Shown piece by piece: positions 15,590 to 64,000 of a DNA stretch of 64,000 nucleotides (position 1 is the first letter of the stretch; each line of letters begins with the position of its first letter). The DNA lies in the IMG/VR virus record IMGVR_UViG_2772190661_000001, positions 63,706 through 127,705 of that record. One strand, written 5' to 3'. The position numbers and the translations under genes are program-made. The DNA comes from a virus (taxonomy: Duplodnaviria; Caudoviricetes). The notes beneath the pieces were generated by a model that made no database searches, had not been told where the DNA came from, and worked only from the letters and a program-made list of their open reading frames with translations.

Positions 15590-15780
15590 CGGCCGTCCTC
15601 CGCCTGGTGCGGGTACTCGTCGTACGCCTGGATGAGCGCGTCAGCGGCGTCGTAACCGGGGTCGCCGCCGCCGTGCCGCCAGGTGGCGACGTGTTCGATC
15701 AGCGCGCGGGCGGCTGTGACCTCGGTCCGCCGGATCCGGCCGACGGCGATGAGGCGCTCGCACTCGTTCAGGGACTTCAC
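15586..15780 (-). CDS. Phage hypothetical protein
   Basis: Coupled short ORF with GTG start. Confidence 0.5.
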   Translation of the reverse strand: MKSLNECERLIAVGRIRRTEVTAARALIEHVATWRHGGGDPGYDAADALIQAYDEYPHQAEDGR

Positions 15781-24469: not shown

Positions 24470-24542
24470 TGCCTCTGGAGAGATTCGAACTCCCGACACC
24501 CGGATCCGTAATCCGGTGCTCTATCCGCTGAGCTACAGAGGC
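24470..24542 (-). tRNA. tRNA-Arg(ACG)
   Basis: GCCTCTG acceptor, CCGGA-TT-ACG-GA-TCCGG, GTTCGAA T-loop; no encoded CCA. Confidence 0.95.
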
Positions 24543-24543
24543 G

Positions 24544-24637
24544 TGGAGGAGAGTGAGGGATTCGAACCCTCGGCGGAGGTGTTCGCCCCCGCTACGGTGT
24601 AGCAAACCGCTGCCTTGGACCGCTCGGCCAACTCTCC
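24544..24637 (-). tRNA. tRNA-Ser(GCT)
   Basis: GGAGAGT acceptor, GCGGT-TT-GCT-AC-ACCGT, long variable arm, encoded CCA. Confidence 0.93.
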
Positions 24638-24654
24638 TTGCATTGCGAGAAACG

Positions 24655-24726
24655 CTGCGGGCGGAGGATTCGAACCTCCATCGTCCGGGTCAGAGCCGGA
24701 TGTGCTGCCGGTTGCACCAGCCCGCA
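24655..24726 (-). tRNA. tRNA-Gln(CTG)
   Basis: U1-A72, TCCGG-CT-CTG-AC-CCGGA. Confidence 0.9.
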
Positions 24727-24765
24727 CCGGGGCGTCCCGGGCCGTGATCGACACGGCCCGGGACG

Positions 24766-25203
24766 TCACAGGGCCATTGCCGCCCAGGTGGGGGCGACCG
24801 GCCGGAATCGCAGGGGCATGCGCGCCTCGACAGGCGTGCGGTCACCCTTGCGCTGGTTACAGGCGCCGCACGCGGCGGCCGTGTTCGCCCATGAGTTGCG
24901 GCCGCCGCGCGAGCGGGGCATCACGTGGTCGATCGTCGAGGCGTGGCCGCCGCAGTAGACGCAGCGACGGCCGTCCCGGACCAGCACGCCGGCCCGCGAC
25001 CAGCCGGGGCCACGCGAGTGCCGCCAGCGCGTCACCACGTAGCTGACCAGCCGCACCACGGTCGGCACCGGCCAGACGCCTATCTGCGAGTCGGGGTGCG
25101 ACTCGTGAACCTCCGCCACGCGGCGCACCAGCATCCGCACCGCGTGGCGGAGACTGACCCGGTGCAACGGGCCGAGGTCGGCGTTCAGCACCAGCACGTC
25201 CAC
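24766..25203 (-). CDS. HNH endonuclease within the tRNA operon
   Basis: VLVLNA N-terminus; RDGRRCVYCG...TIDHVMPRSRGG.NSWAN...C..CN..K. Confidence 0.95.
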   Translation of the reverse strand: MDVLVLNADLGPLHRVSLRHAVRMLVRRVAEVHESHPDSQIGVWPVPTVVRLVSYVVTRWRHSRGPGWSRAGVLVRDGRRCVYCGGHASTIDHVMPRSRGGRNSWANTAAACGACNQRKGDRTPVEARMPLRFRPVAPTWAAMAL

Positions 25204-25236
25204 CGGATCCTCCTTTCATGGGTTTGTCGAGGTGAG

Positions 25237-25307
25237 AGCGGTTACGGGGAGTCGAACCCCGGTCTGCTGCATGGCAAGCAGCCGCACTGCCGTTGTGCTA
25301 CAACCGC
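25237..25307 (-). tRNA. tRNA-Gly(GCC)
   Basis: GCGGTTG acceptor, GCTGC-TT-GCC-AT-GCAGC, U73. Confidence 0.92.
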
Positions 25308-25311
25308 ATCG

Positions 25312-25386
25312 TCGGGATGCCCGGATTCGAACCGGGGGCCTTCCGCTCCCAAAGCGGACGCGCTGACCAAGCTGCGCCACATCCCG
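25312..25386 (-). tRNA. tRNA-Pro(TGG)
   Basis: CGGGATG acceptor, TCCGC-TT-TGG-GA-GCGGA, A73. Confidence 0.94.
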
Positions 25387-25454
25387 TACTTAACCATCCG
25401 CTATGGAATTCTCAATCATCATTTCCGTGCGCATAAAATGCGCAGGACAAAGCG

Positions 25455-25527
25455 CACGGGCGGCAGGAGTCGAACCCGCAACCTACGGTTTTGGAGGCCG
25501 TTGCTCTACCAGTTGAGCTACACCCGT
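25455..25527 (-). tRNA. tRNA-Trp(CCA)
   Basis: ACGGGTG acceptor, ACGGC-CT-CCA-AA-ACCGT, G73. Confidence 0.92.
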
Positions 25528-25827: not shown

Positions 25828-26394
25828 GTGATCATGCGGCTCGGGAAGCAGATGCGCGCCCGCCGGAGCAGTGAGCTCGCGGCCCTGCGCGCCGAGGTCG
25901 CCGCGCTCCGCGCCGAGGTGGCGGCGCTCCGCCCGTCCCCGCCGCCGCCCGCCGACGACCTCGCACAGGATTACCGCACCTGGCGGGACGGCCCGCTGCT
26001 CCGGCTCGCGAAGGTGCTCACCCGCCGCGCCGGGTCCGACGCGCCCGCACCGGCCCGCGGCGCCGCGATGCACGCGCTCTGCCGGGTGCTCCTGACCCCG
26101 GCCACCGACGCGGAGACCCGGCACCGCCTGGTCGGCGACACCGTCACCGACCTGCTGGGCGACACCTCGTGGCGCAACGACGCGGCGCTCGTCCGTACCC
26201 TCATCGAGGCTCGTGACGGCGCCACACCGCTGCGCGACGCCGTCGCCGTGCACGAGTGGCTCTGGCCGGCCGGGGGCGTCGCGCTCGACCCGGCCCGGCA
26301 CGACATCCTGCCCGGCTCCGAGGGCGGCCGCGTCGTCGCGACCGCCGCCCCGGGCCTCCGTGGTGCCGTGTTACCGCTCGTCGTGGCCGGGTGA
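25828..26394 (+). CDS. Hypothetical protein with GrpE-like C-terminus
   Basis: N-terminal coiled coil; G..LDPARHD...GRVV....PGL...VL..V resembles the GrpE beta domain. Confidence 0.5.
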   Translation: MIMRLGKQMRARRSSELAALRAEVAALRAEVAALRPSPPPPADDLAQDYRTWRDGPLLRLAKVLTRRAGSDAPAPARGAAMHALCRVLLTPATDAETRHRLVGDTVTDLLGDTSWRNDAALVRTLIEARDGATPLRDAVAVHEWLWPAGGVALDPARHDILPGSEGGRVVATAAPGLRGAVLPLVVAG

Positions 26395-29451: not shown

Positions 29452-30987
29452 GTGATGCGAAATCCCTCGGATTGGGCAGGTAGCACTGACAGCGGCTCTC
29501 CCAAGTACGCCGTGGCCTACATACGGGTGTCCCGGGTGGGCGGACGGGACGATGACCTCATCTCTCCGGAGTTGCAGCGATTCCAGATCGATGAGCTTGC
29601 CCGGCGCGAAGGGATCAAGATCGTCGAGGAGATGCAGGATCTAGACCGGTCCGGACGCGACTTCACCAAACGTCGCGTCGAGGAGATCATCGACGGAATC
29701 CGGAACGGCAAGTGGCAGTACGTCCTGCTCTGGAAGTGGTCCCGCTGGGGCCGCAACATGCGCCAGTCTCAGCTGTACCTGGGTCGGGCTGAGGACGCTG
29801 GCGGCGTCGTACGCGCAGCGACGGAGGATTTCGACCCGGGAACAACTATCGGCCGCTTCAGCCGAGACCAGATGCTGTCCTTCGCGCAACTGCAATCGGA
29901 CATGATCGGTGACAGTTGGCGTGATACCCAGGACCGTCGTCGCCGCAATGGCCTACCTCATAACGGTCGGCCTCGGTTCGGGTACGAGTACAGCCGGAAG
30001 ACCGGCTATACCCCTCATCCTGAAACCGGGCCACTGCTGGCGAGCTTCTATGAGCGGTATGTTGCCGGGGAGTCCTTCTACAAGCTCGTCCTGGAGTTGA
30101 ACCGCAGCGGCATCCAGCCGCCCCAGACGGATGTTTGGAGTCAGACGGCGCTCTCGGTTCTCATGGATACGGGTTTCGCGGCTGGGCTGATTCGAGAGAA
30201 GTCTTCCCAACAGCGTCGCCGTGAGGGCAAGGCCACCAGGCGCACGCTCGACTCGTACGATATCTGGCGCGTAGGCGCACATGAGCCGTTGATTTCAGAG
30301 CCGGTCTGGGTTCGGTATCTCGAACGCCGCAAGCAACAGGCGAAGCTTCCTCCGAGGTCTCGGTCGCCGAAGTACGCCTTGTCGTCTGTCATGCGGTGTG
30401 CACTGTGCGGAGCGTCGATGACAGTGATGCATGGAAGGAACGGGCGTCAGTGGTCGTGTTCGAAGGCACGAGCGTCCCGGCACCACGAGCCGAACTACAT
30501 TTCGGACGTCCGGGCAAGTCAAGAGGCTTTGGACTGGTTGTTGTCCAATGTGCCGGAGAAGTCTAGTGGGGCGGTAACGGAGGAGGCTCGTCGGCTGGAG
30601 CGAGGTCGTGTGGCACGTGACCGCGTGGCCCGGCTGTCCGAGCAGGACAAGAAGATCAAGGGGCGGCGAGCGAAGCTGATCGACCTGTACTCCGATGATT
30701 TGGTGACGCGCGAGGAGTTTGAGGAGAGGCGTGCATCGCTTCTGGTGGAGTTGGAGGTGGTGCAGGCTGCCCTCGCTGAGGCGCGAGAGGATGAGCGGCG
30801 TTCGGGGGTAAGTTATGTCCGGGCCTTTTCGACACTGGCTCAGGAGTGGGATCTTTGGGAACCGGATAAGCGGCGGGAGGCATTGCTTCAGTTGGTGGGT
30901 AGTGTGACGGTTCTCCCGAAGAGTGCGAACGAATCTAAGCGACTCGTCGTTGTTCCAATATGGGATAGAACCGGCGAGGTGGGATAG
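29452..30987 (+). CDS. Large serine recombinase (integrase)
   Basis: AYIRVS catalytic Ser, D..SG, SRWGR, recombinase domain, CALCG...C zinc ribbon, coiled coil. Confidence 0.95.
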
Positions 30988-51690: not shown

Positions 51691-52066
51691 CGCGCTACCC
51701 GTCAGCGCTCGCCCTGGCCGTCGATTCGTCCGACGCCGTTCAGCTGCCATCGTGGGACCAGATGCAGCCTTTCCGCCCTATCGACGGAGCGCCTCGCCGG
51801 CGAGGCAGGCCTCCGGGATGGACGACTTCACGTTCCACACCTCGTCCGTGGTGGCGAACTGGACGATCCATCCTGTCGGCCCGCCAAAGGGCTACCACAC
51901 CAGCGTCAGGGCAACCAGGACGCTACGCGCCGCTTCGCGGTCGCCTTCGGCGATCCCGGCAGCCCTGACGCTGGCGCGGTAGATCGAAGATCAGGCCGAC
52001 GGGATGGATCTCTCACCCAGCACAAGAATGCAAGATCAACAGCCTCGGGTCGCTACGTGGTGCAAA

Positions 52067-52128
52067 TTGACGCCCGACCCAAAACAAGGTATATTAGTAG
52101 TTATCGCATCGGGATGGCAAGCCCTGCG
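52067..52128 (+). promoter_or_regulatory. Conserved promoter + hairpin leader, copy 1
   Basis: TTGACG-N17(..AAACAAGG)-TATATT-AGTAG; GGG-ATGGCAAG-CCC hairpin. Confidence 0.85.
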
Positions 52129-52164
52129 CGACCAGCAAGACACCATCGACCGAAAGGCAACCTC

Positions 52165-53310
52165 ATGTCGGCCCTTCTGCACGAACTCCAGCAGCCGTTG
52201 CGGCTCGCCGCGCTGCCAACCCTCGTGGAGACCCTGCGCATCCGGCAGGAGCGCAAGATCGATGCCGTGCTCCCCGCGAGCGCCATCTGCGCCGAGGACG
52301 GCGATCTGCGGCTCCGGGACACTGAAAGCCTGCTCACCCCGGAGGGCGTAACCCGTACCAGCGGCCTGTACGCGCCCACCAGCATCTGCGACAGCACCTT
52401 GTCCTCGAAGCTGGCGATTCCGCTGCCGTACCTGCGGAAGATGCGCGCCGAGGACACGGGCTTGCTCGATACCAACATCAACACGTGGCTTCGCCGTCTC
52501 GAAGACCGCCGCTTCCTGGTCCGCTGCTTCTCCGACGGCCCGGACGGTGTCGGTGTCGCCCGCGCCGTCCTCTCGACCAACTACAAGATCATCGATCACA
52601 CCGATGTGCTATTCGCGGTGCTACGCGGCATCAAGGAATCGGGGATGGCGGTCACCGCTACGGCGGACCTGACCGAGCGGCGGATGACTGTGAGGGTGCA
52701 GTCGGAGGAGATCCGAGCGCTCGCCCCGGCGTTGCTGCGCCGGTATCGGTCGCCATTCAGCGACGCCACCGGCGCCGACGATCCCACGGTGTTCGCCGGG
52801 TTCGTGTTCACCAACGGCGAGACCGGCGCGAGCCGATGGACCGTGACGCCGCGGATCGTGGTGCGGGTCTGCTCCAACGGCATGACCATGAACGAGGACA
52901 TGATCGGTGCTGTCCATCTCGGCGCGGAGCTGGCCGATACCGGTGTGATCGCCTGGTCTGAGGACACGCGGGCGGCGAACCTGACGCTCATCGTGAAGCA
53001 GGCCCGCGACGCCGTGCGCAGCTTCCTGGACGTGGATTACGTCACGCGGAAGCTGACCGAGATCGAGAGGAAGGCAGGACGGGAGATCAGCGACCCCCAG
53101 GCCGCGATCCAGGTCGTCTCCCAGCGGCTGCGGTTCACCGCCGACGAGCAGCGGGAGATCCTCAACCACTTCATCGCTGGCGGAGACCGGACGGCCGGCG
53201 GGGTCATGCACGCGGTGACGAGCACCGCGCAGACACTGACCGATCCTGACGCCGCCTTCGCCATGGAGATGCAGGGCGTGCGGGCGATGGAGATCGCCGC
53301 GACCGCCTGA
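52165..53310 (+). CDS. DUF932 domain protein
   Basis: KLAIP..Y, FLVRCF, ARAVLSTNY, NGETG, VCSNG, HLG motifs. Confidence 0.85.
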   Translation: MSALLHELQQPLRLAALPTLVETLRIRQERKIDAVLPASAICAEDGDLRLRDTESLLTPEGVTRTSGLYAPTSICDSTLSSKLAIPLPYLRKMRAEDTGLLDTNINTWLRRLEDRRFLVRCFSDGPDGVGVARAVLSTNYKIIDHTDVLFAVLRGIKESGMAVTATADLTERRMTVRVQSEEIRALAPALLRRYRSPFSDATGADDPTVFAGFVFTNGETGASRWTVTPRIVVRVCSNGMTMNEDMIGAVHLGAELADTGVIAWSEDTRAANLTLIVKQARDAVRSFLDVDYVTRKLTEIERKAGREISDPQAAIQVVSQRLRFTADEQREILNHFIAGGDRTAGGVMHAVTSTAQTLTDPDAAFAMEMQGVRAMEIAATA

Positions 53311-53315
53311 ACGCC

Positions 53316-53349
53316 GCCACCCCCGGAGCCAGTGCGCTCCGGGGGTGGC
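53316..53349 (+). terminator. 14-bp GC stem-loop after DUF932
   Basis: GCCACCCCCGGAGC-N6-GCTCCGGGGGTGGC. Confidence 0.65.
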
Positions 53350-53414
53350 CCGCGCCCATCCCGTCGCCGTCACGCATGGCCTTGAACAGGCCACCCTCGA
53401 TCATCGGAGTTACC

Positions 53415-54002
53415 GTGCCCACATCTCTACGCATCGCCGTTCCTCACGGCGTGCAGCTACCGCGAACCCTGACCGAAGCCGACGCCGTCGACCTGGTGAG
53501 CAGGCTCGCAGAACACTACGGATGGTCATACCAGCTCTTTGGCCGAGGCGTCGTCGAAGAGCACCTGGCCGTCAACCGCGACCACCCGGCGGAAAGCAAG
53601 TCCCGGCATCGCCTGAGCGAGCAGCAGTGGCGCCGCGTGCGGAAGACCGCAGCCTGGCGGTCGGTACGCAGGGTCGGCATCCGCGCCGTCGTCGAGGCGG
53701 GCCTGCTCGATGCGGCCGTCCGGCAGGCGGGTCTGGAATGCCTCGCGTGCGGTGCCGCGCTGGACGCCGCGCCCGATCTGACCTGGAGTCATTGCGCCTC
53801 GTGCCTGGTGCGCACCGACCTTGGCACCCTCCAGCAGGCGCGCTGCCCTGCCACCGCGGCCGAAAAAGCGCACCAGTTCGCAGAGTCGAGGTGTGTCCGT
53901 TGCGGGATCCCCGCCCCCGAGACGCCATCGCAGTCCAGAGTCGAGCCGGTGCCGGATGATCCGGCCACGCGGCACCTGACGGTCGTACCCGACGCCGCCT
54001 GA
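53415..54002 (+). CDS. Zn-ribbon hypothetical protein
   Basis: GGAG + GTG; CLAC, CASC, C...H...CVRC. Confidence 0.6.
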   Translation: MPTSLRIAVPHGVQLPRTLTEADAVDLVSRLAEHYGWSYQLFGRGVVEEHLAVNRDHPAESKSRHRLSEQQWRRVRKTAAWRSVRRVGIRAVVEAGLLDAAVRQAGLECLACGAALDAAPDLTWSHCASCLVRTDLGTLQQARCPATAAEKAHQFAESRCVRCGIPAPETPSQSRVEPVPDDPATRHLTVVPDAA

Positions 54003-54137
54003 GGCACCCGGAACGCCCCCGACTTCCCCCAGTGGCGAAAGGGGCTGCTGGCCGCTTGCCGCTTCCACTCGGCCAGCAGCCCCGCCCGCCGATGCCTCAT
54101 CCGCCCATCATGGCGGACCGATTCTCGGAGAGTCACT

Positions 54138-54749
54138 ATGCAGCACGTCATCGGTACGAACAGGTGCATCACGGTGCCGGACATCATCGCGAAGCTGGCC
54201 GCGCGAGGGGTTCCGGAGCACGTCATGGAGGTGTGGCAACAGCCCCCGGGATGTCCGATGCTGGCAATCGGCCCGCGCACGCCCTCCGGCCACTTCCGCG
54301 TGATTCTCGGCAGAGTTCACCTCGGCGACCCGCCATACGTCGCGCTTGGCGAGGGCGTCGCCGCGATGCGCGACAACGACGGCACCACCGAGGACGCCAT
54401 CACGTTCACCGATCAGGACACCGCCTCCACCATCGCCGCCCGGGTGCACACGCTGCTTCACGCCCCGGGCGTGTGCGCCGACTGCGGCTGGAGTCAGGGG
54501 GCCGGCCACTTCGACGGCTGCTTCACCCCCTTCACCCGCGCAGCGCGCATCACCGCCGACGCGCTGCGCGCGCTCGCGCGGGTATTCGACGATGCGCAGC
54601 TGATGGCCCGAGACGGCAACGAGCTGGCCGCGCGGATCGGCGTGGCGTACCCATTTGGAGCCGCACTGCACGAGGTCGCCGCCGCAGCGCAGACGTGGGC
54701 CGGCGCGCTGACAGACATCCCGTCCTCGCAGGATGACATGGCGGCATGA
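54138..54749 (+). CDS. Hypothetical protein
   Basis: GGAG RBS; CADC...H..C. Confidence 0.65.
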   Translation: MQHVIGTNRCITVPDIIAKLAARGVPEHVMEVWQQPPGCPMLAIGPRTPSGHFRVILGRVHLGDPPYVALGEGVAAMRDNDGTTEDAITFTDQDTASTIAARVHTLLHAPGVCADCGWSQGAGHFDGCFTPFTRAARITADALRALARVFDDAQLMARDGNELAARIGVAYPFGAALHEVAAAAQTWAGALTDIPSSQDDMAA

Positions 54750-55091
54750 ACCGGCTGGCGCGGCTCCTTTAACGAGTCAGTCCCGTAGACCGGAGCGGCC
54801 TTCGGCCGCGCTGCCTTACCCTTTCTCGGCCACCGGCTGCGCCGGAAGTGTGGGTGCTGGCCATCGTCAGTCAAATCCGGGACGGGCGAGCAAAACATCA
54901 TGCGGAAGAACACATGATCTTTTGCTCGAAACCCCCGTCCCGGATGTGACAGCCGCCGTCCAGCACCGGAGCGAGCACGCTCGCCCCCCGCCGGCCGAAA
55001 AAGGGCGAGGCCACGAGCCCCAAGTGCGAGCGTTTCGTCGGCACCTTACGCCGCCCGACTCAGACAAAAGAGGCGAACAGGCATAGAAAGG

Positions 55092-55155
55092 TGGACCTCA
55101 GCCCACAAACAAGGTATATTAGTAGCAGCTCGGCAGGGAGGGCAAGCCCAGCCGA
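55092..55155 (+). promoter_or_regulatory. Conserved promoter + hairpin leader, copy 2
   Basis: TGGACC-N17-TATATT-AGTAG; TCGGC..GGG-AGGGCAAG-CCC..GCCGA. Confidence 0.85.
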
Positions 55156-55187
55156 CATCAGCAGGAGACCACCAGAGAAGGACATCC

Positions 55188-55793
55188 ATGGACGAGGGCA
55201 CGAATTCCATCGCCGCATACGTACCGCCATTGCGGGTTCTGCGAGGTCACGTCAGTCGCAGCACCGCATACGAAATCGACGGACACCGGTACGGCGTCCG
55301 GGTCAGCAAGATCCGGTATTGGGTCGAGACCGCTACGCGCGGCCCAAAGCGGCAGCAGCACAGAGTCATGGCGCAGACCACCAACCCGCACCAGCCCGGC
55401 AGCCCGTGGAACAACCCGTGGCCGAAGTCCACGTACTTTCGCTGGGTCATGCTGTGCCTGGACCCGAATGGTCAGATGGAGTGGACCGGAGTTCATGACT
55501 TCGACGTGACTCCGGAATTTGACGCCCGCCTGAAGCTCAGCGGCGTCCACGCCCAACTGACCGACCCGGAGCGGGAGCAGTACGAGGTGCTGGCGGACAA
55601 GTCACGACTGCGTCGCGGGCCCTGGATACAGTTCGCCCGCACCGTGGACGCCGTGGCCGCACACATCGCGGCCACCGGCGAGGACCCGCACACGCACCGT
55701 GGCACCTGGGACAGTCCCGACGGCCCCGTCTTCCTGGGAACCGATCACGTACCGGTCTACCTGGCGAGCGCCCGCTCACGCCCGGCGCATTGA
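55188..55793 (+). CDS. Hypothetical protein (leading-region type)
   Basis: AAGGA RBS; AYEIDG..YG...IRYWVE...QTTNP...WN.P.KSTY. Confidence 0.75.
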   Translation: MDEGTNSIAAYVPPLRVLRGHVSRSTAYEIDGHRYGVRVSKIRYWVETATRGPKRQQHRVMAQTTNPHQPGSPWNNPWPKSTYFRWVMLCLDPNGQMEWTGVHDFDVTPEFDARLKLSGVHAQLTDPEREQYEVLADKSRLRRGPWIQFARTVDAVAAHIAATGEDPHTHRGTWDSPDGPVFLGTDHVPVYLASARSRPAH

Positions 55794-55801
55794 TCATCGC
55801 C

Positions 55802-55831
55802 GCCGCGTCCGGGGCGGGCCCCGGACGCGGC
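55802..55831 (+). terminator. GC stem-loop after the CDS
   Basis: GCCGCGTCCGGGG ... CCCCGGACGCGGC. Confidence 0.6.
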
Positions 55832-55878
55832 ACCACCCACCACACCGGACCATCCACCTGGGGTCTCCATATTCCAGG

Positions 55879-55940
55879 TGGACACGAAATCAAAAACAAG
55901 GTATATTATTAGTTATTGACGGGGAGGCAAGCCCCGCCGA
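55879..55940 (+). promoter_or_regulatory. Conserved promoter + hairpin leader, copy 3
   Basis: TGGACA-N17-TATATT-ATTAG; CGGGG-AGGCAAG-CCCCG. Confidence 0.85.
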
Positions 55941-55971
55941 CACGGCAAGCCACCGCCGAAAGGAACGCGTC

Positions 55972-56445
55972 TTGACGGTCATCGATTTACTTCCCGGTAG
56001 CGCCGAACACGACCCGGCGACCGACCTCTCCGGCGATCGCGGTTTCGCCGACCTGATTCGCGGGCCGCAACCGATGCCCAGGCCCTTGGACACACGGTCG
56101 CTGGAGCTGATCGAGAGCGCCCGCGAGCAGGTGACGCACGCGGTCCGTGAGCTGCTGTGCGACGGTCTCGCGGCAGAGTGCCTGGCGATCCCACTCACCG
56201 ACTGGGAACGGGTCACCCGATTCTGGACGGACGAGTCGATCACTCTTCTCGTCCGGCTCAGTGAGCCCGCCTGCCCGCAGGCCCCCATCGCGGCGGGACT
56301 CGTCGCCGACCTCCGGGCGCTGGTGTCCCTGGTCCTGCACCACCACAACCGGTGGCGAACATGGGCCGAGGTCACGGACGCGGCCGAGCGGACCGCGCAG
56401 CACGCACGGTGGGCCTCCAACAGCATCCACGCCCTCACCAGCTGA
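55972..56445 (+). CDS. Hypothetical protein
   Basis: AAAGGA RBS + TTG start. Confidence 0.6.
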   Translation: MTVIDLLPGSAEHDPATDLSGDRGFADLIRGPQPMPRPLDTRSLELIESAREQVTHAVRELLCDGLAAECLAIPLTDWERVTRFWTDESITLLVRLSEPACPQAPIAAGLVADLRALVSLVLHHHNRWRTWAEVTDAAERTAQHARWASNSIHALTS

Positions 56446-56612
56446 CAGCGGCCGGGCGTCCGAGCCAGCACGGCCCGGACGCCCCCCGGCTCGGCTCGCT
56501 GCTCCTGGCGGAAGCTCCTATGTCCGCCACCGCCCCACGACGACCGGCCCAGATCGGGAGGCAAGCCCGTGACGGAGTCCGGCCAGCAAGAAACCGATTC
56601 CAAGGAGACACC

Positions 56613-58460
56613 GTGAGCATCACCGCACTGCCCCATGACCTCACCTCGCCAGCAGATGACGACCTGCTCGCCGACGAGGGTGAGGCGAACTCCCACGATT
56701 CATCGGTCACAGAGGACCGGGACACCGTCCAGCACACGCCCGGCGAAGCGGACCAGGACGAGGAGCTTCCCGGCCGGTACAGGTCCATCCCCGTCAAGAG
56801 CGTCATCGTCAACGAACGCAACGTCCGCACCGATGCCGTCGCCCTGCCCGGCATCGTGATGAACCTGCGCACCAGCGGCATGAAGGGCATGCTCGCGCCC
56901 GTCATCGTCGTCTCTCTCGGCACCAGCGACGCCCCGGAGGCAGACCCGGAGATCGTCGCGCAGGCCGACAGCGGCGACGGGGACCACGACGGCGGCGAGG
57001 GCAAAGACGCAGACGAAAGCGAAGACGAGGACACCACGACGTACCTGCTGATCGATGGCGAACAGCGGTACCTGTCCGCCGTGGAGGCAGGGCAGAAGAA
57101 GATCCAAGCGATCATCCGTGACGATCTGGCCGGTGACCGAGATCAGATCATCGCGATGCTGCGCCAGTCGCACCGCACCGACCCGTCCGGGATGCAGCAG
57201 GCCCGCGCGTTCGAGCTGCTGGCCTTGGACGGCATGTCCGACGACGAGATCGCCGACAGCACCGGCTACCTGCCTCAGGTCGTCACCGCCAGCCGCCGGG
57301 CAGCACGTATGGGCACCAGCCTCACCGCCTCCGCCGCCCAGACCGGCCTCGACCTCACCCAGCTCGCCAAGCTCGCCGAGTACGCCGACGACGAGCAGGC
57401 GGCTGCGGCGCTCATCGCTGCCGCAGAAGACGGCCCGCACGAGTTCGCCCGCGCCGCCCTGCGGGCGGACAACGCCCGCGAGGCCGCACGTCAATGCGAG
57501 GTGCGCCGGGCCGCCCTGCGCGCCGAGGGCGTGGCGCTTCTCGCTCAGCGGCCCGATTGGTCCGACAAGACGCACAAGCCGCTGGTGGAGCTGCGCAACC
57601 ATGACGGCCGCACGGTGACGGCCGACAGCCACCGCAGCTGCCCCGGCCACGCCATCTACCTGACGACCGGTGACCCGAGGCCCCGAGAGTTCTACTACTG
57701 CACCGACTACGCCAAGCACCGCCACCAGCTCTACAGCAGCATCAGCGGCGCGCGACGCGGCAAGATGTCGGAAGCCGAGCGCGCCGACCTGCGTATCACC
57801 AAGGAGAACAACCGGCGCATGGACGCCGCCAGCCCCGTCCGCCGGGAGTTCGTCGCCCAGATGCTGGCGGCCCGGAAGGCACCGAAGGGCGTCGGACGGC
57901 TGGTCGCCCAAATGCTCACCACACACTGCGAGGTGCTGGAGTCCTGGTCCAAGCGCGGTCGGCCGATGCTCGACGAGCTGATGTATCCCGGCAAGGCGCG
58001 CCGCCCCGGCACCGCGTACGTTCCGGCCAAGGCCACCGAGGAACGCTGCCGCACCATCATGCTGACCGCGATCGCCGCCGCGATCGAAAGCCGCATCACC
58101 AAGACGACGTGGCGCACCGTCGAACCCGCCGTGGCGCTGTGGCTGGAATTCTGCGAGACGAACGGCTTCGCCCTCGACCCGGTGGAAAAGATCATCATCG
58201 AGAAGGCGGGTCCGGCCGGAAGGCCGAGGCCGGGTACACCCCCACTGAGCACGACCGTGTCGCAGATCGCGGCGGGCCCGGACATCACTGCGACGGACAC
58301 AGACCCGGTAAATGACCTGGCGTTCGGTGAGGAGGAGCCGCCGGAGCCGATCGATACCGGCGATGAGCTTGCCCAGCTCGCGGCACTCGTGAGCGCTCCC
58401 GGCCCCACGGATGAATCCGATGACGATGACTTCGACGCGTCCATCCCGGTAGCCGCCTGA
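56613..58460 (+). CDS. ParB/Srx N-terminal domain protein (plasmid/ICE leading-region type)
   Basis: NERNVR, LAPVIV, LIDGEQR, HTH (DDEIADSTGY), C-terminal HRSCPGH...YYCTD. Confidence 0.85.
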   Translation: MSITALPHDLTSPADDDLLADEGEANSHDSSVTEDRDTVQHTPGEADQDEELPGRYRSIPVKSVIVNERNVRTDAVALPGIVMNLRTSGMKGMLAPVIVVSLGTSDAPEADPEIVAQADSGDGDHDGGEGKDADESEDEDTTTYLLIDGEQRYLSAVEAGQKKIQAIIRDDLAGDRDQIIAMLRQSHRTDPSGMQQARAFELLALDGMSDDEIADSTGYLPQVVTASRRAARMGTSLTASAAQTGLDLTQLAKLAEYADDEQAAAALIAAAEDGPHEFARAALRADNAREAARQCEVRRAALRAEGVALLAQRPDWSDKTHKPLVELRNHDGRTVTADSHRSCPGHAIYLTTGDPRPREFYYCTDYAKHRHQLYSSISGARRGKMSEAERADLRITKENNRRMDAASPVRREFVAQMLAARKAPKGVGRLVAQMLTTHCEVLESWSKRGRPMLDELMYPGKARRPGTAYVPAKATEERCRTIMLTAIAAAIESRITKTTWRTVEPAVALWLEFCETNGFALDPVEKIIIEKAGPAGRPRPGTPPLSTTVSQIAAGPDITATDTDPVNDLAFGEEEPPEPIDTGDELAQLAALVSAPGPTDESDDDDFDASIPVAA

Positions 58461-58542
58461 CGGCGTCAGCGTGGCGCGTGCCGGACGCCCACCCGGTGCG
58501 CGCCACACCGCCTCCCTTACGGAACCCAGCCACCAGCCGAGC

Positions 58543-58602
58543 TGGACACTTCCGCACAAACGAGGTATATTAGTAGCTATTGGCGGGGAGGCAAGCCCCG
58601 CC
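58543..58602 (+). promoter_or_regulatory. Conserved promoter + hairpin leader, copy 4
   Basis: TGGACA-N17-TATATT-AGTAG; GGCGGGG-AGGCAAG-CCCCGCC. Confidence 0.85.
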
Positions 58603-58641
58603 GCACCACAGCAGAAACCACCACGGCGAAAGGCATCCATC

Positions 58642-58929
58642 ATGAGCACCCACACCCTGATAGCCATCAAGGCCTCACCTGCCGTGCAGGTCACCGCCGG
58701 GTGGGACGGCCCGCTCGGCACGTTCTTCGGCTCAGTGGTCGACAACGGCGATGAGATCTTCGCGGTCGGCACTACCCGGCGGAAGGTCACCGACCCTGCC
58801 GTCGTGATCGACGGGCTGCGCCCCTACGCGCTCATCCCCGACAGCCTGCGCGCAACCCTCCGCGCGGACGCCTGGCGTGAGGGGAACCGTCAGGTACCGG
58901 CACCGGTCAGCGCCGCACCGGCTTCCTGA
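58642..58929 (+). CDS. Hypothetical protein
   Basis: GWDGPLGTFFGSV motif seen in small mobile-element proteins. Confidence 0.7.
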   Translation: MSTHTLIAIKASPAVQVTAGWDGPLGTFFGSVVDNGDEIFAVGTTRRKVTDPAVVIDGLRPYALIPDSLRATLRADAWREGNRQVPAPVSAAPAS

Positions 58930-59565: not shown

Positions 59566-59996
59566 AAGCCCGCAGAGCCGATGGCGGTACAGAGGCCGCC
59601 GTGCGTGAGATGCGTCGACACCTGCGCCGCGCCCGCGCGGCGGCAGAGGCGGACAGCGCCGCCCAGGAAATCGCGGTGCTGCGGGCCGCGCTGGACTTCG
59701 CGGTCTCCGTGCGCTGGCCGGACCTGCCCGACATCGGCGTGCCACGCACGGCCAGCATGCGCACCATCGTCCTCATCCGCAGGGCCACCGATCCTGATCC
59801 ATGGCACTACCTCACGGTGCAGGACCTGAAGCGCGGCGACGAATTCGCCTTCGTCGACGCCGCCGGTTTACCGACCACCTGTCATGTGCTGGAAGCCCGC
59901 TTCGGCATCGACACGGACACCTGCCATCTCTACCTCAGCGCACTCGACTTGGTCGGCTTCACCGCCCCTCTACGGGCCACCATCACCCGCGCATAG
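59562..59996 (+). CDS. Hypothetical protein
   Basis: GTGA-coupled to the previous ORF. Confidence 0.55.
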   Translation: MKARRADGGTEAAVREMRRHLRRARAAAEADSAAQEIAVLRAALDFAVSVRWPDLPDIGVPRTASMRTIVLIRRATDPDPWHYLTVQDLKRGDEFAFVDAAGLPTTCHVLEARFGIDTDTCHLYLSALDLVGFTAPLRATITRA

Positions 59997-60141
59997 CCCT
60001 ATCACGGCAGAACGCGCGGACTCCCCTGTACTCCGCCACGCACCGGCGATCCCGTCCACGCCAGGCCGCAGGTCCGCACGGACACGCTGCCCGGCTCTGA
60101 TCGGCGCGCCCCGCCGATACCCCGGAAGGAATCTCATTGCG

Positions 60142-61743
60142 ATGACCGAACACACCGACGCCTCCGACAACCTGGCCGGTCGTAGCCCGTACCGGCTGCC
60201 GGCCGAGATGTACGCGCCGCAGCTGCCCAGCGACGACGACGCGCCGCTGGCGATCGCGCACGACCACCATCACGGCACCCGGCTGGAGGGCGGGTGCCGT
60301 GATGACGGGACCCTGCCCATCGCCGAACGCCACGGCCTCGCCTGGCGGCGCGACTGTGGCGTGCACCTGTCCGGCAGCCGGGACAGCTTCGCCGATCTGT
60401 CGCTCATCACCGCGCTCGCCGCGGACCTGCGCGCCGCCGGGCACCGCGTCGCCGTTCACATCGACGACCTCTGGCGGCCTGCCCACGCCCGCCAGGACGA
60501 CCGCGCGGCCCGCGCCGGGGCTCGCGCGGCCCGGCTCGAATACCGCGCGGGTCTCGCCGCCGGCTGCGCCGCCACCGCGTACGCCGCCGAGCGGGACATC
60601 CGCGACGGCTGGCCCCTTGGACAGCCGATCCTCACCGACCACCACAGCGCACCACGGCACCGGCGCGCGCTGGCGCGCGCCGACGCTCACCGGGAGAAAG
60701 CAGCCGCCGAATCCGAGTACGCCGCATACCTCACCGGGCGGGCCGCCGCCGCGCGCCGCACCGAGGCCGACGCCCACGGCCACCCCCGGGCCCTCATGCG
60801 CCGCCTCGACACGCTCACCGCAGACCTGCGCCGCTGGGAACACGTCGCCGAAACGGCCACGACCCCGGCCAGGCAGCGCCGGGCCGCGCTGGAGGCCGAA
60901 CGGATCCACGAGGACATCGCCCACCAGCAGGCCGTGCTCGCCGAGCTCGCCGCACGGGACGAGTTCGTCGCCTGGTCACGCGAAGACTTCCGGCCCGGGG
61001 ACCTGGCCAACATCGGTGGGCTGTGGTGCCACGTCGCGCGCGTCAACCGGGCCAGCATCAGCGTCCTGCGGCCCGACGCCTACCCCGGCGAGAAAGCCCG
61101 CCCGGTGCGGTGGGACGCCGTGCACGGCCGCCGACGCGACGGCCAGCAGCACGACACCCCCACCGGCACGCCGTGGCCGGTCGCGCATGCCGTCGCCGTC
61201 GACCGGTGGCAGCGCCTGCAGGCACGCGCCGATTCCACCAGCCGCGGCACCGCCGACGAGGCCCGGCACGTGGCCGCCGCGCGCCGGATCGCCGCCGGCC
61301 TGCCCGTCACCGCCGCCGCGGCCGAACTCGCCGCCCGGCCAGGCCCCGACCACATCGACGGCCAGCGCACCGCAGCGAGGCTGACCTTGGAGATCTTCGA
61401 CCGGCTCGCCGCCGGCGACACCCCGGCCGACGTCACCGCCGCGGTCGCCGACTCTGTCGCCGCGCTCCGCGCGCTCTGCCCGCCCCCAGCCTGGACCATG
61501 CCCGACGGCCAGCCCATCGACAGGCGCATAGACCAGCTGCAGCCCGGCGACATCATCGCCGGTATATGGGAGCGCGGCTATTCCGGCCGGATCCTCGCGC
61601 GCACCGTCTGCGGCCCCGTCGCCGACGTCAGCACCGCCCGCGACCGGCGTGAGTCCGGCACCTGGCACACCATCACCCTCAGCGCCGGCGAGCAGTACGA
61701 CCACCAGTCACACATCTGGTTCGCCGTCCACCCCCGCCCGTAG
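60142..61743 (+). CDS. DUF3560 domain protein
   Basis: PLGQPILTDHHS..RHRR; WSREDFRPGD...VARVNRASISV. Confidence 0.85.
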   Translation: MTEHTDASDNLAGRSPYRLPAEMYAPQLPSDDDAPLAIAHDHHHGTRLEGGCRDDGTLPIAERHGLAWRRDCGVHLSGSRDSFADLSLITALAADLRAAGHRVAVHIDDLWRPAHARQDDRAARAGARAARLEYRAGLAAGCAATAYAAERDIRDGWPLGQPILTDHHSAPRHRRALARADAHREKAAAESEYAAYLTGRAAAARRTEADAHGHPRALMRRLDTLTADLRRWEHVAETATTPARQRRAALEAERIHEDIAHQQAVLAELAARDEFVAWSREDFRPGDLANIGGLWCHVARVNRASISVLRPDAYPGEKARPVRWDAVHGRRRDGQQHDTPTGTPWPVAHAVAVDRWQRLQARADSTSRGTADEARHVAAARRIAAGLPVTAAAAELAARPGPDHIDGQRTAARLTLEIFDRLAAGDTPADVTAAVADSVAALRALCPPPAWTMPDGQPIDRRIDQLQPGDIIAGIWERGYSGRILARTVCGPVADVSTARDRRESGTWHTITLSAGEQYDHQSHIWFAVHPRP

Positions 61744-62667: not shown

Positions 62668-63136
62668 CCTCACCGCCAGCACAGCCACCTCCGCCAGACA
62701 TCGATCACACGACGCCTGGCGGACCGCCCAGCGTCTGATGCTGCCTCGCGACGTAACAACCCGGCGATACCGAGAAAGGTAAACGCGGCCGACGCCCACC
62801 CCGAAGGGGGAAACACCACAAGGGTGCGTCTGGCAAGAACCGCCGGCCGCTTCAGCAAGAAACCACTCCGAGAACAGCGGCCTTTCGGTCACTGCGCCAG
62901 AGATAGGCATCTCAGCCCTGGACTATACCGGCCCACACCCAGGCTCGGGCACTGCGTGTTCCGCCTGGCAGACACGCTGGATGGGCCATATGACCGGTCT
63001 CGGAGAGGTAGGCCTCGTGCTTCCCCACATCGTCACCGAATCGGCGGTGCACCGGCGCACCGTGACAGCACCGCCTCAGCCGTCATGGCCGGGAACCCGG
63101 CTGCGCACCCGTCGCGCGATACGGCACGATCAGCAC

Positions 63137-64000
63137 ATGGCACGCGCTATCGACCGCAGCGGGGACCCTGACGAGCTCGTGGGCACCCACGAGGCCGCAC
63201 GCGTGCTCGGCTACCCACAGCACAAGGCACTACCACAAGGCCTTCTTGACCGCGCCGACGAGATCGACGACGACGGCCACGTCCTACGGCGCCGGTTCCG
63301 GCGCGCAACGCTGTGGGACTACGCCGACACCGGCCTTGGTGCCGGGACCACCGCCGTCGACGGTCCGGAGCACTTGGACCGACGTGGAGTTGCCGAACGC
63401 GCCGGCGTGCGCGTCGGCGCCGTGGACGTCTGGATCGCTCATCGGTCTACCAATGGCTTCCCGCCCATGACCCGGGACCACGGGTGCGACGCGGACGCTC
63501 TCGACGCGTGGCTTGCACGACGCGCCGAGGAGCGCCGCGGCCTCCTTACCGAGGTCGATTACACCGCCGATCCCGAAGACCTCGTCAGCCAGGCAGGCGT
63601 GGCGCGTATCGCCGGCTACGCGAAAGTCGAGAATCTGCGCGGCTCATCGCTGATCACTGCCCTGGACCAGCGCAACAACCCGGAACATAATCAGCAACTG
63701 CCCAGCGGCCGCATCCGCAAACGCTGGCCGGTCCGCGTCGTCTGGGAAGTCCTGGAGCAGCGGACCGGCCGGACGGGTCGGCCGACCGGTGCGATCGCGG
63801 CCAGCCGTGTCGTCGACCGCAGCGGCGATCCTGACGAATTGGTCGCTGCCGCCGAAGCCGCTCGAGTGCTCGGCTACCCACGTCCCGCCAGCCTGCCTCC
63901 ACGCGTCCTCGACGCCGCAGACGAGGTGACGACCAGTGAGACCGGCAAGGTCACGCGTCGTCGTTGGAAACGATCGACTCTCTGGGGAATCGCCGGCTGA
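63137..64000 (+). CDS. Protein of four tandem Xis/MerR-like winged-HTH modules
   Basis: DRSGDPDELV..EAARVLGY...RRR(F/W).R.TLW twice, plus two diverged modules; start uncertain. Confidence 0.65.
   Translation: MARAIDRSGDPDELVGTHEAARVLGYPQHKALPQGLLDRADEIDDDGHVLRRRFRRATLWDYADTGLGAGTTAVDGPEHLDRRGVAERAGVRVGAVDVWIAHRSTNGFPPMTRDHGCDADALDAWLARRAEERRGLLTEVDYTADPEDLVSQAGVARIAGYAKVENLRGSSLITALDQRNNPEHNQQLPSGRIRKRWPVRVVWEVLEQRTGRTGRPTGAIAASRVVDRSGDPDELVAAAEAARVLGYPRPASLPPRVLDAADEVTTSETGKVTRRRWKRSTLWGIAG

What the first reader, a model, noticed from the sequence alone, without database searches (positions are those of the whole stretch)
52067..58640. Four-copy promoter plus GGCAAG-loop hairpin leader defining an establishment-type regulon
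Seen: at 52067, 55092, 55879 and 58543 the same cassette T(T/G)GAC-N17 (ending AAAC(A/G)AGG)-TATATT-A(G/T)TAG is followed by a hairpin with a GGCAAG loop and differing but still paired stems, then a CAGCA..ACC tract and a purine-rich RBS. A fifth promoter-less hairpin and tract (56555-56595) precedes parB. The genes served are DUF932, ParB-like, DUF3560 and small unknowns, all co-oriented. Known: conjugative leading regions carry such genes and anti-defence factors under repeated upstream elements (IncN CUP repeats, pLS20/p576 establishment sequences). Inference: an actinobacterial zygotic-induction regulon with a DNA operator over -10 and a conserved RNA element for antitermination or translational control.
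Basis: partly seen in the sequence, partly recalled or inferred. Interest (0 to 1): 0.8.

Follow-up and report, generated by a model that had tools for sequence, protein, structure and literature searches.

The report
Repeated promoter-hairpin leader of an ICE
A strong promoter followed by a small conserved RNA hairpin and a C/A-rich leader is repeated in front of the genes that probably enter a new host first on an integrated conjugative element; the same design recurs up to about 30 times on related Streptomyces plasmids and Micromonospora elements and seems undescribed, though it is a variant of a known kind of plasmid control module.

Summary
The box AACRAGGTATATTAKTAG occurs 4 times in the window and once 541 nt past its end. 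The GGCAAG hairpin occurs 6 times. Nearly all copies in the 11-Mb genome lie in this island.

The island is a conjugative element. A TrwC/MOBF relaxase gene lies 3.6 kb past the window, co-oriented with the served genes.

The same architecture heads the homologous genes in five other actinomycete elements:
- a promoter, TnGACn-17-TAnAnT;
- a stem-loop starting 6-10 nt after the -10, with a GCAA (GNRA-type) loop core;
- a spacer of 50% C, 31% A and 3% T;
- a Shine-Dalgarno, with the start codon about 48 nt after the loop.

One Streptomyces plasmid has at least 24 copies, all on one strand, in an ArdA/SSB/DUF932 gene array upstream of mobF. Stems differ between elements but still pair. Promoterless copies before parB are conserved.

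No Rfam family, PafBC motif or Frpo-type fold fits, and I found no paper describing it.

I read it as a portable promoter-plus-mRNA-leader module for leading-region genes. An operator over the -10 and antitermination remain untested. The scan has noted analogous modules with other loop sequences, for example on a Kineococcus plasmid. Long hairpins that fold better on the template strand lie beside three cassettes.

The parts
52067..52164 (+). Cassette 1. -35 TTGACG 52067-52072; -10 TATATT 52090-52095. Hairpin 52105-52128: outer stem CGCA/TGCG, inner stem GGG/CCC, loop ATGGCAAG. Then the CAGCAAGACACCA tract and SD AAAGG 52153-52157.
52165..53310 (+). DUF932-like gene (381 aa), first gene served. 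It is followed by two unknown genes (53376-54002, 54138-54749), each behind a GC-rich hairpin.
55092..55187 (+). Cassette 2. -35 TGGACC; -10 TATATT 55115-55120. Hairpin 55130-55155: stems TCGGC/GCCGA and GGG/CCC, loop AGGGCAAG. Then tract and SD.
55188..55793 (+). Unknown 201-aa gene served by cassette 2.
55879..55971 (+). Cassette 3. -35 TGGACA; -10 TATATT 55902-55907. Hairpin 55916-55940: stem CGGGG/CCCCG, loop AGGCAAG. Then tract and SD.
55972..56445 (+). Unknown 157-aa gene (TTG start) served by cassette 3. It has a homologue behind a cassette in the related element G193.
56543..56612 (+). Promoterless leader. Hairpin CGGG/CCCG 56555-56569 with loop AGGCAAG, a possible outer stem, the CAGCAAGAAACC tract and SD AAGGAG. 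It lies after a terminator-like hairpin at 56447-56491.
   Evidence: Promoterless leaders before parB also occur in L021 and L024.
56613..58460 (+). ParB-like gene (615 aa).
58543..58641 (+). Cassette 4. -35 TGGACA; -10 TATATT 58566-58571. Hairpin 58582-58602: stem GGCGGGG/CCCCGCC, loop AGGCAAG. Then tract and SD.
58642..58929 (+). Unknown 95-aa gene served by cassette 4. The DUF3560 gene (59884-61743) lies further down the same strand.
62818..62874 (+). Degenerate leader. The tract CAGCAAGAAACCAC is kept and the hairpin has decayed. It lies upstream of a 339-aa gene (62981-64000) with a weak MerR/excisionase-type HTH match, which is conserved in the four Micromonosporaceae elements.
51863..52012 (-). 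Long hairpin element 55 nt upstream of cassette 1. Associated with the cassettes; function unknown.
54850..54970 (-). Long hairpin element 120 nt upstream of cassette 2.

Best explanation
The repeats are copies of a modular expression cassette. It heads the transcription units of the probable leading (first-transferred) region of a MOBF-type integrative conjugative element.

A full copy has four parts:
1. A near-consensus housekeeping-sigma promoter, TnGACn-17 bp-TAnAnT.
2. An imperfect 9-14-bp stem-loop that starts 6-10 nt after the -10, that is, at or next to the expected transcription start. Its 7-8-nt purine-rich loop has the invariant core GCAA.
3. A 25-30-nt C/A-rich, G-poor, almost U-free spacer.
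4. A strong Shine-Dalgarno, with the start codon about 48 nt after the loop.

I think the hairpin and spacer act in cis in the mRNA as a portable 5' leader. The hairpin would cap the 5' end against 5'-end-dependent decay. The unstructured spacer would keep the ribosome-binding site open. Together with a strong promoter and a GC-rich 3' hairpin behind each gene, this would give a fast burst of expression once the DNA is double-stranded in the recipient. The conserved loop is probably also read by an unknown common factor.

Shown here: the architecture, its conservation across six elements, pairing kept through sequence change, its independence of the promoter, and its association with genes upstream of the relaxase gene.

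Inferred: the transcription start, action at the RNA level, the direction of the effect, and the order of DNA entry.
For: Rigid geometry in 46 curated copies from 6 elements:
- 35 copies have a -35/-10 pair, 30 of them with a 17-bp spacer.
- The distance from the -10 end to the loop core is 22 nt in 23 of 35.
- 45 of 46 have an SD and a start codon 41-55 nt (median 48) after the core, with no reading-frame bias (19/16/10).
- The spacer is C 50%, A 31%, G 16%, T 3%.

Loop core: GCAA in 38 of 46, GCGAA in 5, GTAA in 1.

Pairing:
- Stems differ between elements but pair, for example GGGG/CCCC, GGGCG/CGCCC, GGGTG/CACCC, CTCCGGAG/CTCCGGAG, GGTCAGGCCCGG/CCGGGCCTGACC.
- On the model-fitted alignment, 75.8% of cells pair against 66.9% in shuffles, 33 cells changed on both sides, and 0 of 500 shuffles reach the score.
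- 42 of 46 hairpins fold better than the mean of dinucleotide shuffles.

Independence of the promoter: promoterless leaders before parB are kept in this element, L021 and L024, and before other genes in the Streptomyces plasmid.

Gene-by-gene modularity: every gene is followed by a GC-rich hairpin without a U tract.

Setting:
- The relaxase gene lies downstream on the same strand.
- All 24 model hits on NZ_CP108490 are on one strand, in an array with ArdA, SSB and DUF932 that ends 3.4 kb before mobF.
- The homologous DUF932-like gene carries the cassette in five elements.

Strand: the sense strand of the short hairpin folds slightly better than its complement (31 against 13 with DNA parameters, 27 against 19 with RNA parameters).
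Against: - There are no transcript data, so the start site and the existence of the leader RNA are inferred (no RNA run holds the stretch).
- A stabilising hairpin does not by itself need a conserved loop, so something sequence-specific is unexplained.
- The inner G/C helix is nearly invariant, and its covariation is no better than a 1-column slip. Most of the covariation sits in outer stems, which are hard to align.
- Copies within one element are not independent.
- The strand test is weak and did not favour the sense strand when the spacer was included.
- Single-stranded C-rich RNA is the preferred cleavage context of mycobacterial RNase E (PMC10641625). The spacer could therefore shorten mRNA life rather than extend it.
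- oriT was not located, so 'leading region' rests on analogy.
Confidence: 0.45

Rival explanations
1. The hairpin is a recognition site for a trans-acting factor. One version is a nut/boxB-like site that makes RNA polymerase read through the hairpin terminators behind each gene. Another is the binding site of a translational repressor or small RNA that shuts the whole set off after establishment.
For: - The loop core is as conserved as the promoter across six elements while the stems change.
- GCAA and GTAA are GNRA tetraloops. The GCGAA variant is a GNRNA pentaloop of the kind that folds like GNRA in lambda boxB (own knowledge).
- A conserved linear tract follows the hairpin.
- Terminator-like hairpins follow each gene, and one lies just before the promoterless copy upstream of parB.
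Against: - No N-like or other RNA-binding protein was identified. Only the DUF932-like protein, the ParB-like protein and the relaxase are shared between the Micromonosporaceae and Streptomyces elements at E 1e-4.
- Most genes have their own promoter, which lessens the need for antitermination.
- The tract is not similar to boxA.
- The loop is 7-8 nt as predicted, not a closed tetraloop.
Confidence: 0.25
2. The hairpin-plus-C-rich tract is an RNase E (or RNase III) entry or processing site. It would cut polycistronic transcripts into single-gene mRNAs, or make the mRNAs short-lived so that expression is only transient.
For: - Mycobacterial RNase E cleaves single-stranded C-rich RNA 5' of cytidines, often in 5' UTRs and between genes (PMC10641625).
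- The spacer is 50% C and predicted unpaired.
- Promoterless copies sit between cistrons.
Against: - The reported motif RN/CNU needs a U, and the spacer has 3% T.
- A copy directly after a promoter needs no processing.
- No cleavage data exist.
Confidence: 0.1
3. The structure works in single-stranded DNA during transfer, for example as a priming site or a replication or transcription roadblock on the entering strand, and not in RNA.
For: - All copies have one orientation relative to the relaxase gene.
- Long hairpins beside three cassettes fold better on the template strand in 7 of 8 cases tested. This suggests that DNA structure matters in this region.
Against: - The short hairpin is slightly more stable on the sense strand, not the template strand.
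- It keeps a fixed distance to the start codon and the SD, which is a feature of an mRNA.
- It holds no -35/-10 pair in its stem, unlike Frpo.
Confidence: 0.1
4. The inverted repeat and the conserved box around the -10 are double-stranded DNA operators of an element-encoded repressor (a Reg576- or ArdK-type zygotic induction circuit). The RNA fold is incidental.
For: - In this element all 5 promoters share AAAAC(A/G/T)AGGTATATTA(G/T)TAG, and so do 2 of 3 promoters of the related element G193. That is more than sigma factor recognition requires.
- Such circuits are known for leading-region genes (PMC6294495, PMC6289460).
Against: - The spacer box is not conserved in the Streptomyces or Micromonospora lineages.
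- The hairpin arms vary in sequence with pairing kept and the loop is asymmetric. That is not what a dimeric DNA-binding protein selects.
- Promoterless copies exist.
- No repressor was identified.
Confidence: 0.07
5. The copies are recent duplications or gene-conversion products of one promoter region and have no special function beyond being a promoter.
For: Copies within one element are very alike.
Against: The architecture is kept in six elements from Micromonosporaceae and Streptomyces whose proteins are only 28-60% identical, with different stem and spacer sequences.
Confidence: 0.03

Closest known systems
CUP (conserved upstream) repeats of the IncN plasmid pKM101/R46 leading region, bound by ArdK (Delver and Belogurov 1997, as cited in PMC6289460)
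   Same: A conserved promoter-bearing segment is repeated in front of several co-oriented leading-region genes (anti-restriction and others), giving one co-regulated set.
   Different: CUP is a Proteobacterial DNA operator/promoter unit with a known repressor. Here there is no sequence similarity, no repressor has been identified, and the most conserved part is a transcribed stem-loop and leader that also occurs without a promoter.
Reg576-controlled establishment promoters of Bacillus plasmid p576 (PMC6294495)
   Same: Several strong double-stranded-DNA promoters sit in front of putative establishment genes of a Gram-positive conjugative element. They are not ssDNA promoters.
   Different: p576 uses dual TTATCCC heptamer operators and an RHH repressor. 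No repeated heptamer or dyad operator was found here, and p576 has no conserved leader hairpin.
Frpo/ssi single-stranded-DNA promoters of F and IncI1 plasmids (PMC11541004, PMC13478746)
   Same: Repeated structured elements lie upstream of leading-region genes, with one orientation relative to the transferred strand.
   Different: Frpo is a long hairpin holding the -35 and -10 in its stem. The cassette promoter is linear and the hairpin is short and downstream of the -10. The long hairpins next to three cassettes resemble Frpo in size only, and I saw no -35/-10 pair in their stems.
Lambda-type nut sites (boxA plus the boxB hairpin with a GNRA-like loop); own knowledge
   Same: A promoter-proximal small hairpin with a GNRA-type loop sits next to a conserved linear tract, in a unit followed by terminators.
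   Different: The order is reversed relative to lambda and there is no boxA similarity. The loop is larger, no N-like protein is known, and there are many copies, one per gene.
5'-terminal stabilising stem-loops (E. coli ompA, B. subtilis ermC and aprE leaders; own knowledge; review PMC3997798)
   Same: A stem-loop at or within a few nt of the mRNA 5' end, followed by an unstructured leader and an RBS.
   Different: Those are single-gene features without a conserved loop. Here a family is reiterated across mobile elements with an invariant loop core.
Promoter-plus-leader-hairpin module noted by this scan on a Kineococcus plasmid (e1-2762818, e1-2762846; unchecked AI notes)
   Same: A strong promoter fused to a small stem-loop with an invariant loop and varying stems, repeated before small plasmid genes of an actinobacterium.
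   Different: The reported loop sequence is different ((A)CAGCGAC). A sequence look-up found no look-alike of the present cassette among earlier windows.

Membership tests
Any Rfam 15 family | Covariance-model match at or near the gathering score | tested here: not met
   A whole-window scan at gathering thresholds found only tRNAs. The permissive scan of 51900-58800 gave only chance-level hits to unrelated families, none on the leaders.
Sigma-70/HrdB-type promoter | -35 TTGACA-like and -10 TAnnnT hexamers 16-18 bp apart | tested here: met
   The four window copies score 9-10 of 12 with a 17-bp spacer. Of the 46 copies in six elements, 35 have such a pair and 30 of these have a 17-bp spacer. 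Activity was not tested.
Frpo/ssi ssDNA promoter | A long hairpin in the transferred strand that rebuilds the -35 and -10 in its stem | tested here: not met
   The cassette promoter lies outside any long stem. The adjacent long hairpins showed no -35/-10 pair at promoter spacing on inspection.
Frpo/ssi ssDNA promoter | Transcription from single-stranded DNA early after entry | not testable with these tools
   Needs mating time-course RNA data.
PafBC (RecA-NDp) promoter of actinobacteria | TGTCRGTG-like element 8 nt upstream of TAnnnT (motif recalled from own knowledge) | tested here: not met
   The 17 nt upstream of the -10 in the cassette copies hold no TGTCRG (sequences). TGTCGG occurs only downstream of the -10 in the Streptomyces plasmid copies.
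CUP/ArdK-type or Reg576-type establishment regulon | The same promoter-bearing segment repeated before leading-region genes | tested here: met
CUP/ArdK-type or Reg576-type establishment regulon | An element-encoded repressor binding an operator in each copy, with transient derepression after transfer | not testable with these tools
   No repressor was identified. The 339-aa protein with a weak HTH match is only a candidate. The operator-like box is lineage-specific.
Leading region of a conjugative element | Adjacent to oriT on the side transferred first, with genes oriented so that the transferred strand is the template | tested here: inconclusive
   The relaxase gene lies downstream on the same strand. 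ArdA and SSB sit in the homologous array of NZ_CP108490. Long hairpins favour the template strand. oriT and nic were not found.
Lambda-type nut site | A boxB hairpin with a GNRA-like loop, plus boxA, read by an N-type protein and Nus factors | tested here: inconclusive
   A GNRA-type core is present in 39 of 46 copies, and a GCGAA pentaloop variant in 5. There is no boxA-like sequence and no N-like protein was identified.
Intrinsic terminator or attenuator | A GC-rich hairpin followed by a U tract | tested here: not met
   The spacer after the hairpin has 3% T. The terminator scan found none at the leaders.
Leaderless or upstream small ORF | A conserved reading frame through the element | tested here: not met
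   The distance from loop core to start codon shows no frame preference (19/16/10). An ATG near the expected transcription start occurs only in some lineages.

The most novel reading that the evidence does not exclude
The GCAA-loop hairpin is the recognition site of a dedicated factor. Together with the long template-strand hairpins beside the cassettes it forms a two-step entry switch of actinomycete conjugative elements. First, single-stranded hairpins act while the DNA enters, by priming or by ssDNA-dependent transcription. Then the canonical promoters fire. A hairpin-binding protein or RNA then carries transcription through the inter-gene hairpins, or shuts the set off. This would be an actinobacterial counterpart of Frpo plus nut.
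Probability: 0.18. Interest if true: 0.8.

Novelty: new variant of a known kind. Interest (0 to 1): 0.6.

Why it matters
Work on how conjugative elements express their first genes in a new host has centred on Proteobacteria (Frpo, CUP) and a few Bacillus plasmids. For actinomycetes, the main antibiotic producers, I found nothing described.

The module gives three things:
- A sequence signature that marks candidate establishment and anti-defence genes in Streptomyces plasmids and Micromonosporaceae ICEs. Most of the dozens of genes it marks have no known function.
- A compact natural expression cassette (promoter, 5' hairpin, leader, RBS) that could be tested directly as a tool in high-GC hosts.
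- A defined small RNA element with an invariant loop, whose reader, if there is one, would be a new regulator of plasmid establishment.

Tried and rejected
- Exact-pattern scan of one genome per species (GGTATATTANTAGN{6,24}GGCAAGCC). Only six chance hits came back, in unrelated low-GC bacteria.
- Family-wide pattern scan. 1 of 400 genomes matched (G193, a true relative).
- Class-wide model search. 0 real hits in 150 genomes, and the single hit lies in coding-like sequence. The first-look filter scored only 35 candidates per genome, so sensitivity was low.
- Viral contigs. The hairpin core matches 57 contigs once each, but none matches the leader model. These are chance hits.
- RNA evidence. 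No RNA holder is listed for the stretch, so there is no expression evidence either way.
- Strand of action from folding energies. The result was mixed when the spacer was included and only weakly favoured the sense strand for the hairpin alone.
- G.T against A.C counts on the alignment (28 against 19) were not decisive, because the outer stems are misaligned.
- Upstream or leaderless small ORF. Rejected, as there is no frame conservation.
It is not present.
- Frpo-like promoter inside the long hairpins. None seen.
- oriT upstream of the relaxase gene. The alignment of three elements showed no clear conserved inverted repeat or nic-like box.
- BLAST of the Streptomyces cassette against all plasmids. 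It found only one further plasmid. Short, diverged leaders are beyond BLAST.
- Cellulosimicrobium plasmid with ParB and DUF3560 homologues. It has no match to the model.

Full report
**1. The observation**

The box AACRAGGTATATTAKTAG occurs at 52083, 55108, 55895 and 58559, all on the + strand, with none expected by chance. The hairpin motif GGRKGGCAAGCCC occurs at 52112, 55137, 55922, 56556 and 58586, against 0.7 expected.

In the whole 11-Mb genome AGGTATATTA occurs exactly only at these four places and at a fifth, 541 nt beyond the end of the window. Three other places match it only with one mismatch. The hairpin motif occurs six times in the island and once elsewhere.

A consensus scan ranks the four sites as the best sigma-70-type promoters in 12.5 kb: TTGACG or TGGACx, a 17-nt spacer, then TATATT. 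A first covariance model also picked up a decayed seventh leader at 62818-62874.

**2. What the island is**

Left of the cassettes lie a large serine recombinase gene (29452-30987), a transposase gene and defence-like genes. Right of the window, 3.6 kb on, lies a 1438-aa TrwC relaxase-helicase gene on the same strand. A GGDEF gene behind the sixth cassette lies in between. So this is an integrative conjugative or mobilisable element of the MOBF type.

The genes served are:
- a DUF932-like protein. It is below the Pfam threshold itself, but 53% identical to a RefSeq 'DUF932' protein and a strong match to phrog_1362;
- a ParB-like protein;
- small proteins of unknown function.

DUF3560 is present, but not directly behind a cassette.

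**3. Relatives**

The closest ParB-like homologues (44-47% identity) are from Micromonospora. Their contigs show the same gene order: DUF932-like, 178 aa, ParB, an HTH-type protein, a large unknown, GGDEF, TrwC. Their intergenic regions have the same layout with other sequences: AGGTATAGT, a GC stem with loop ACGGCAAC or ACGGCGAA, a tract such as CACCACACAAACCCCAACCC, AAGGAG, then ATG.

A second Micromonosporaceae genome (G193) has three copies before the homologous genes.

Streptomyces sp. NBC_01244 plasmid NZ_CP108490 has 24 model hits, and 29 copies by motif. All are on one strand, at 12.7-20.7 kb and 48-79.4 kb. The latter block is an array of about 60 small co-oriented genes that includes ArdA, SSB and DUF932. 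It ends 3.4 kb before mobF.

S. halstedii plasmid NZ_CP109045 has further copies with stems GGGCG/CGCCC or GGGTG/CACCC around loops ending in GCAAG.

Upstream regions of DUF932 homologues on other actinomycete plasmids vary:
- Some show the same plan with other loops (Streptomyces NBC_00989, S. chartreusis, Amycolatopsis).
- Some show only a hairpin plus a C-rich tract (Pseudonocardia and others).

**4. Anatomy in numbers**

In 46 curated copies from six elements:
- 35 have a recognisable -35/-10 pair, 30 of them with a 17-bp spacer.
- The loop core lies 22 nt after the -10 in 23 of 35.
- 45 have an SD and a start codon 41-55 nt (median 48) after the core, with no frame preference.
- The spacer is C 50%, A 31%, G 16%, T 3%.

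The stem begins 6-10 nt after the -10, which is where transcription is expected to start (own knowledge). The loop core is GCAA in 38 copies, GCGAA in 5 and GTAA in 1. That is a GNRA-type tetranucleotide or its pentaloop variant, set in a purine-rich 7-8-nt loop.

**5. Is the fold selected?**

Stems differ between elements while pairing is kept.

On the model-fitted alignment of 37 copies, an 11-pair structure has 75.8% of cells paired against 66.9% in shuffles. There are 33 cells with changes on both sides, and 0 of 500 shuffles reach the covariation score. It also beats all slid controls.

The inner G/C helix is almost invariant. On a MAFFT alignment it is no better than a one-column slip. 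The support therefore comes mainly from the outer stem, and it is limited by alignment quality and by the relatedness of copies.

42 of 46 hairpins fold better than the mean of their dinucleotide shuffles, with a median z of -1.4.

**6. Which strand, and which molecule?**

The fixed distance to the SD and start codon, the promoterless copies between cistrons, and a slight energetic advantage of the sense strand all favour an RNA leader. The energetic test is weak. There are no transcript data.

**7. What it is not**

- No Rfam family matches.
- It is not an intrinsic terminator. There is no U tract.
- It is not a small ORF.
- It is not an Frpo-type hairpin promoter.
- It was not found in phage-like contigs.
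- It is rare in chromosomes: 1 of 400 family genomes and 0 of 150 class genomes. That fits a feature of particular mobile elements.

**8. Mechanism**

I favour a portable promoter-plus-mRNA-leader module. It combines a strong housekeeping promoter, a 5'-terminal stem-loop, an unstructured G-poor spacer, a strong SD, and a GC-rich 3' hairpin after each gene. That design fits rapid, high expression of single genes.

The invariant loop suggests a reader as well, such as a nut-like antitermination factor, a translational repressor or a small RNA. Mycobacterial RNase E prefers single-stranded C-rich RNA (PMC10641625), so the spacer could instead mark the mRNAs for processing or fast decay. The sign of the effect is open.

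The box AAAACAAGG before the -10 is shared with G193. It is not a family-wide feature.

**9. Leading region?**

In MOBF plasmids the relaxase gene enters last, and leading genes are transcribed towards oriT with the transferred strand as template (own knowledge; PMC11541004 for the orientation rule). If oriT lies between the array and the relaxase gene, the cassette genes fit that rule. I could not locate oriT.

Indirect support comes from long hairpins:
- Three hairpins of 121-197 nt (z -9 to -11) lie 50-120 nt upstream of cassettes 1, 2 and 6.
- Positional homologues exist in both Micromonospora elements, with wholly different stem sequences.
- Long inverted repeats precede cassette blocks in the Streptomyces plasmid.
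- 7 of 8 of these elements fold better on the template strand.

These elements may act in single-stranded DNA. They lie outside the given finding and remain unexplained.

**10. Known work and novelty**

Repeated promoter units before leading-region genes are known: the CUP repeats with ArdK in IncN (PMC6289460, citing Delver and Belogurov 1997) and the Reg576 operators in p576 (PMC6294495). So are ssDNA promoters (PMC11541004, PMC13478746).

My searches found no description of such a module in actinomycetes.

This scan's earlier notes report analogous promoter-hairpin modules with other loops on other actinobacterial plasmids. None matches this sequence.

I class it as a new variant of a known kind.

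Noticed in passing
window 51863-52012, 54850-54970; L006:225-421 (225-421 nt past the window end): Three very stable long hairpins (DNA fold z -9.3, -10.3, -11.1) lie 50-120 nt upstream of cassettes 1, 2 and 6. Positional homologues in two Micromonospora elements (L021:7600-7730, L024:7642-7770) keep the architecture with quite different stem sequences: an outer stem, a GATC-N-GATC junction, and a 25-29-bp inner stem with GTCAAG/CTTGAC at the loop. 7 of 8 such elements, including three on the Streptomyces plasmid, fold better on the template strand. They are candidates for an ssDNA-active element or an oriT-type repeat.
   Followed up: partly
window 53316-53349, 54034-54090, 55802-55831, 56447-56491: Every gene of the block is followed by a GC-rich hairpin without a U tract, so the region is built of leader-gene-trailer units.
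   Followed up: partly
L052 (NZ_CP108490), e.g. 25880-25915, 30390-30420, 15640-15670: In many Streptomyces cassettes the -35 hexamer sits in the loop, or in the 3' arm, of a GC-rich inverted repeat. An example is CCGGGGCGGGGGAG GTTGAC TCCCCCGCCCCGG. It looks as if the upstream terminator and the promoter overlap.
   Followed up: no
plasmid hits H36, H38, H43, H49, H50, H51: On several linear Streptomyces plasmids the DUF932-like gene lies only 2-3 kb from an end of the record, that is, next to a telomere.
   Followed up: no
L006:623-1225; L021:15595-16236; L024:15244-15882: A small stand-alone GGDEF (diguanylate cyclase) gene behind a cassette is conserved between the HTH-type gene and the relaxase gene in the Micromonosporaceae elements. 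This is an unusual gene for a leading region.
   Followed up: no
L024:13567-15084: The 505-aa protein at this position in Micromonospora sp. C51 carries a weak precomputed AcrVA2-like (anti-CRISPR) Pfam hit. The gene sits behind a cassette.
   Followed up: no
window 24470-25527 and 26399-47880: There is a cluster of six tRNA genes just left of the element. Inside the element are an Hsp70-like 815-aa protein, a 1278-aa PQQ-repeat protein and a 1303-aa YobI-like P-loop NTPase, which looks like defence-type cargo.
   Followed up: no
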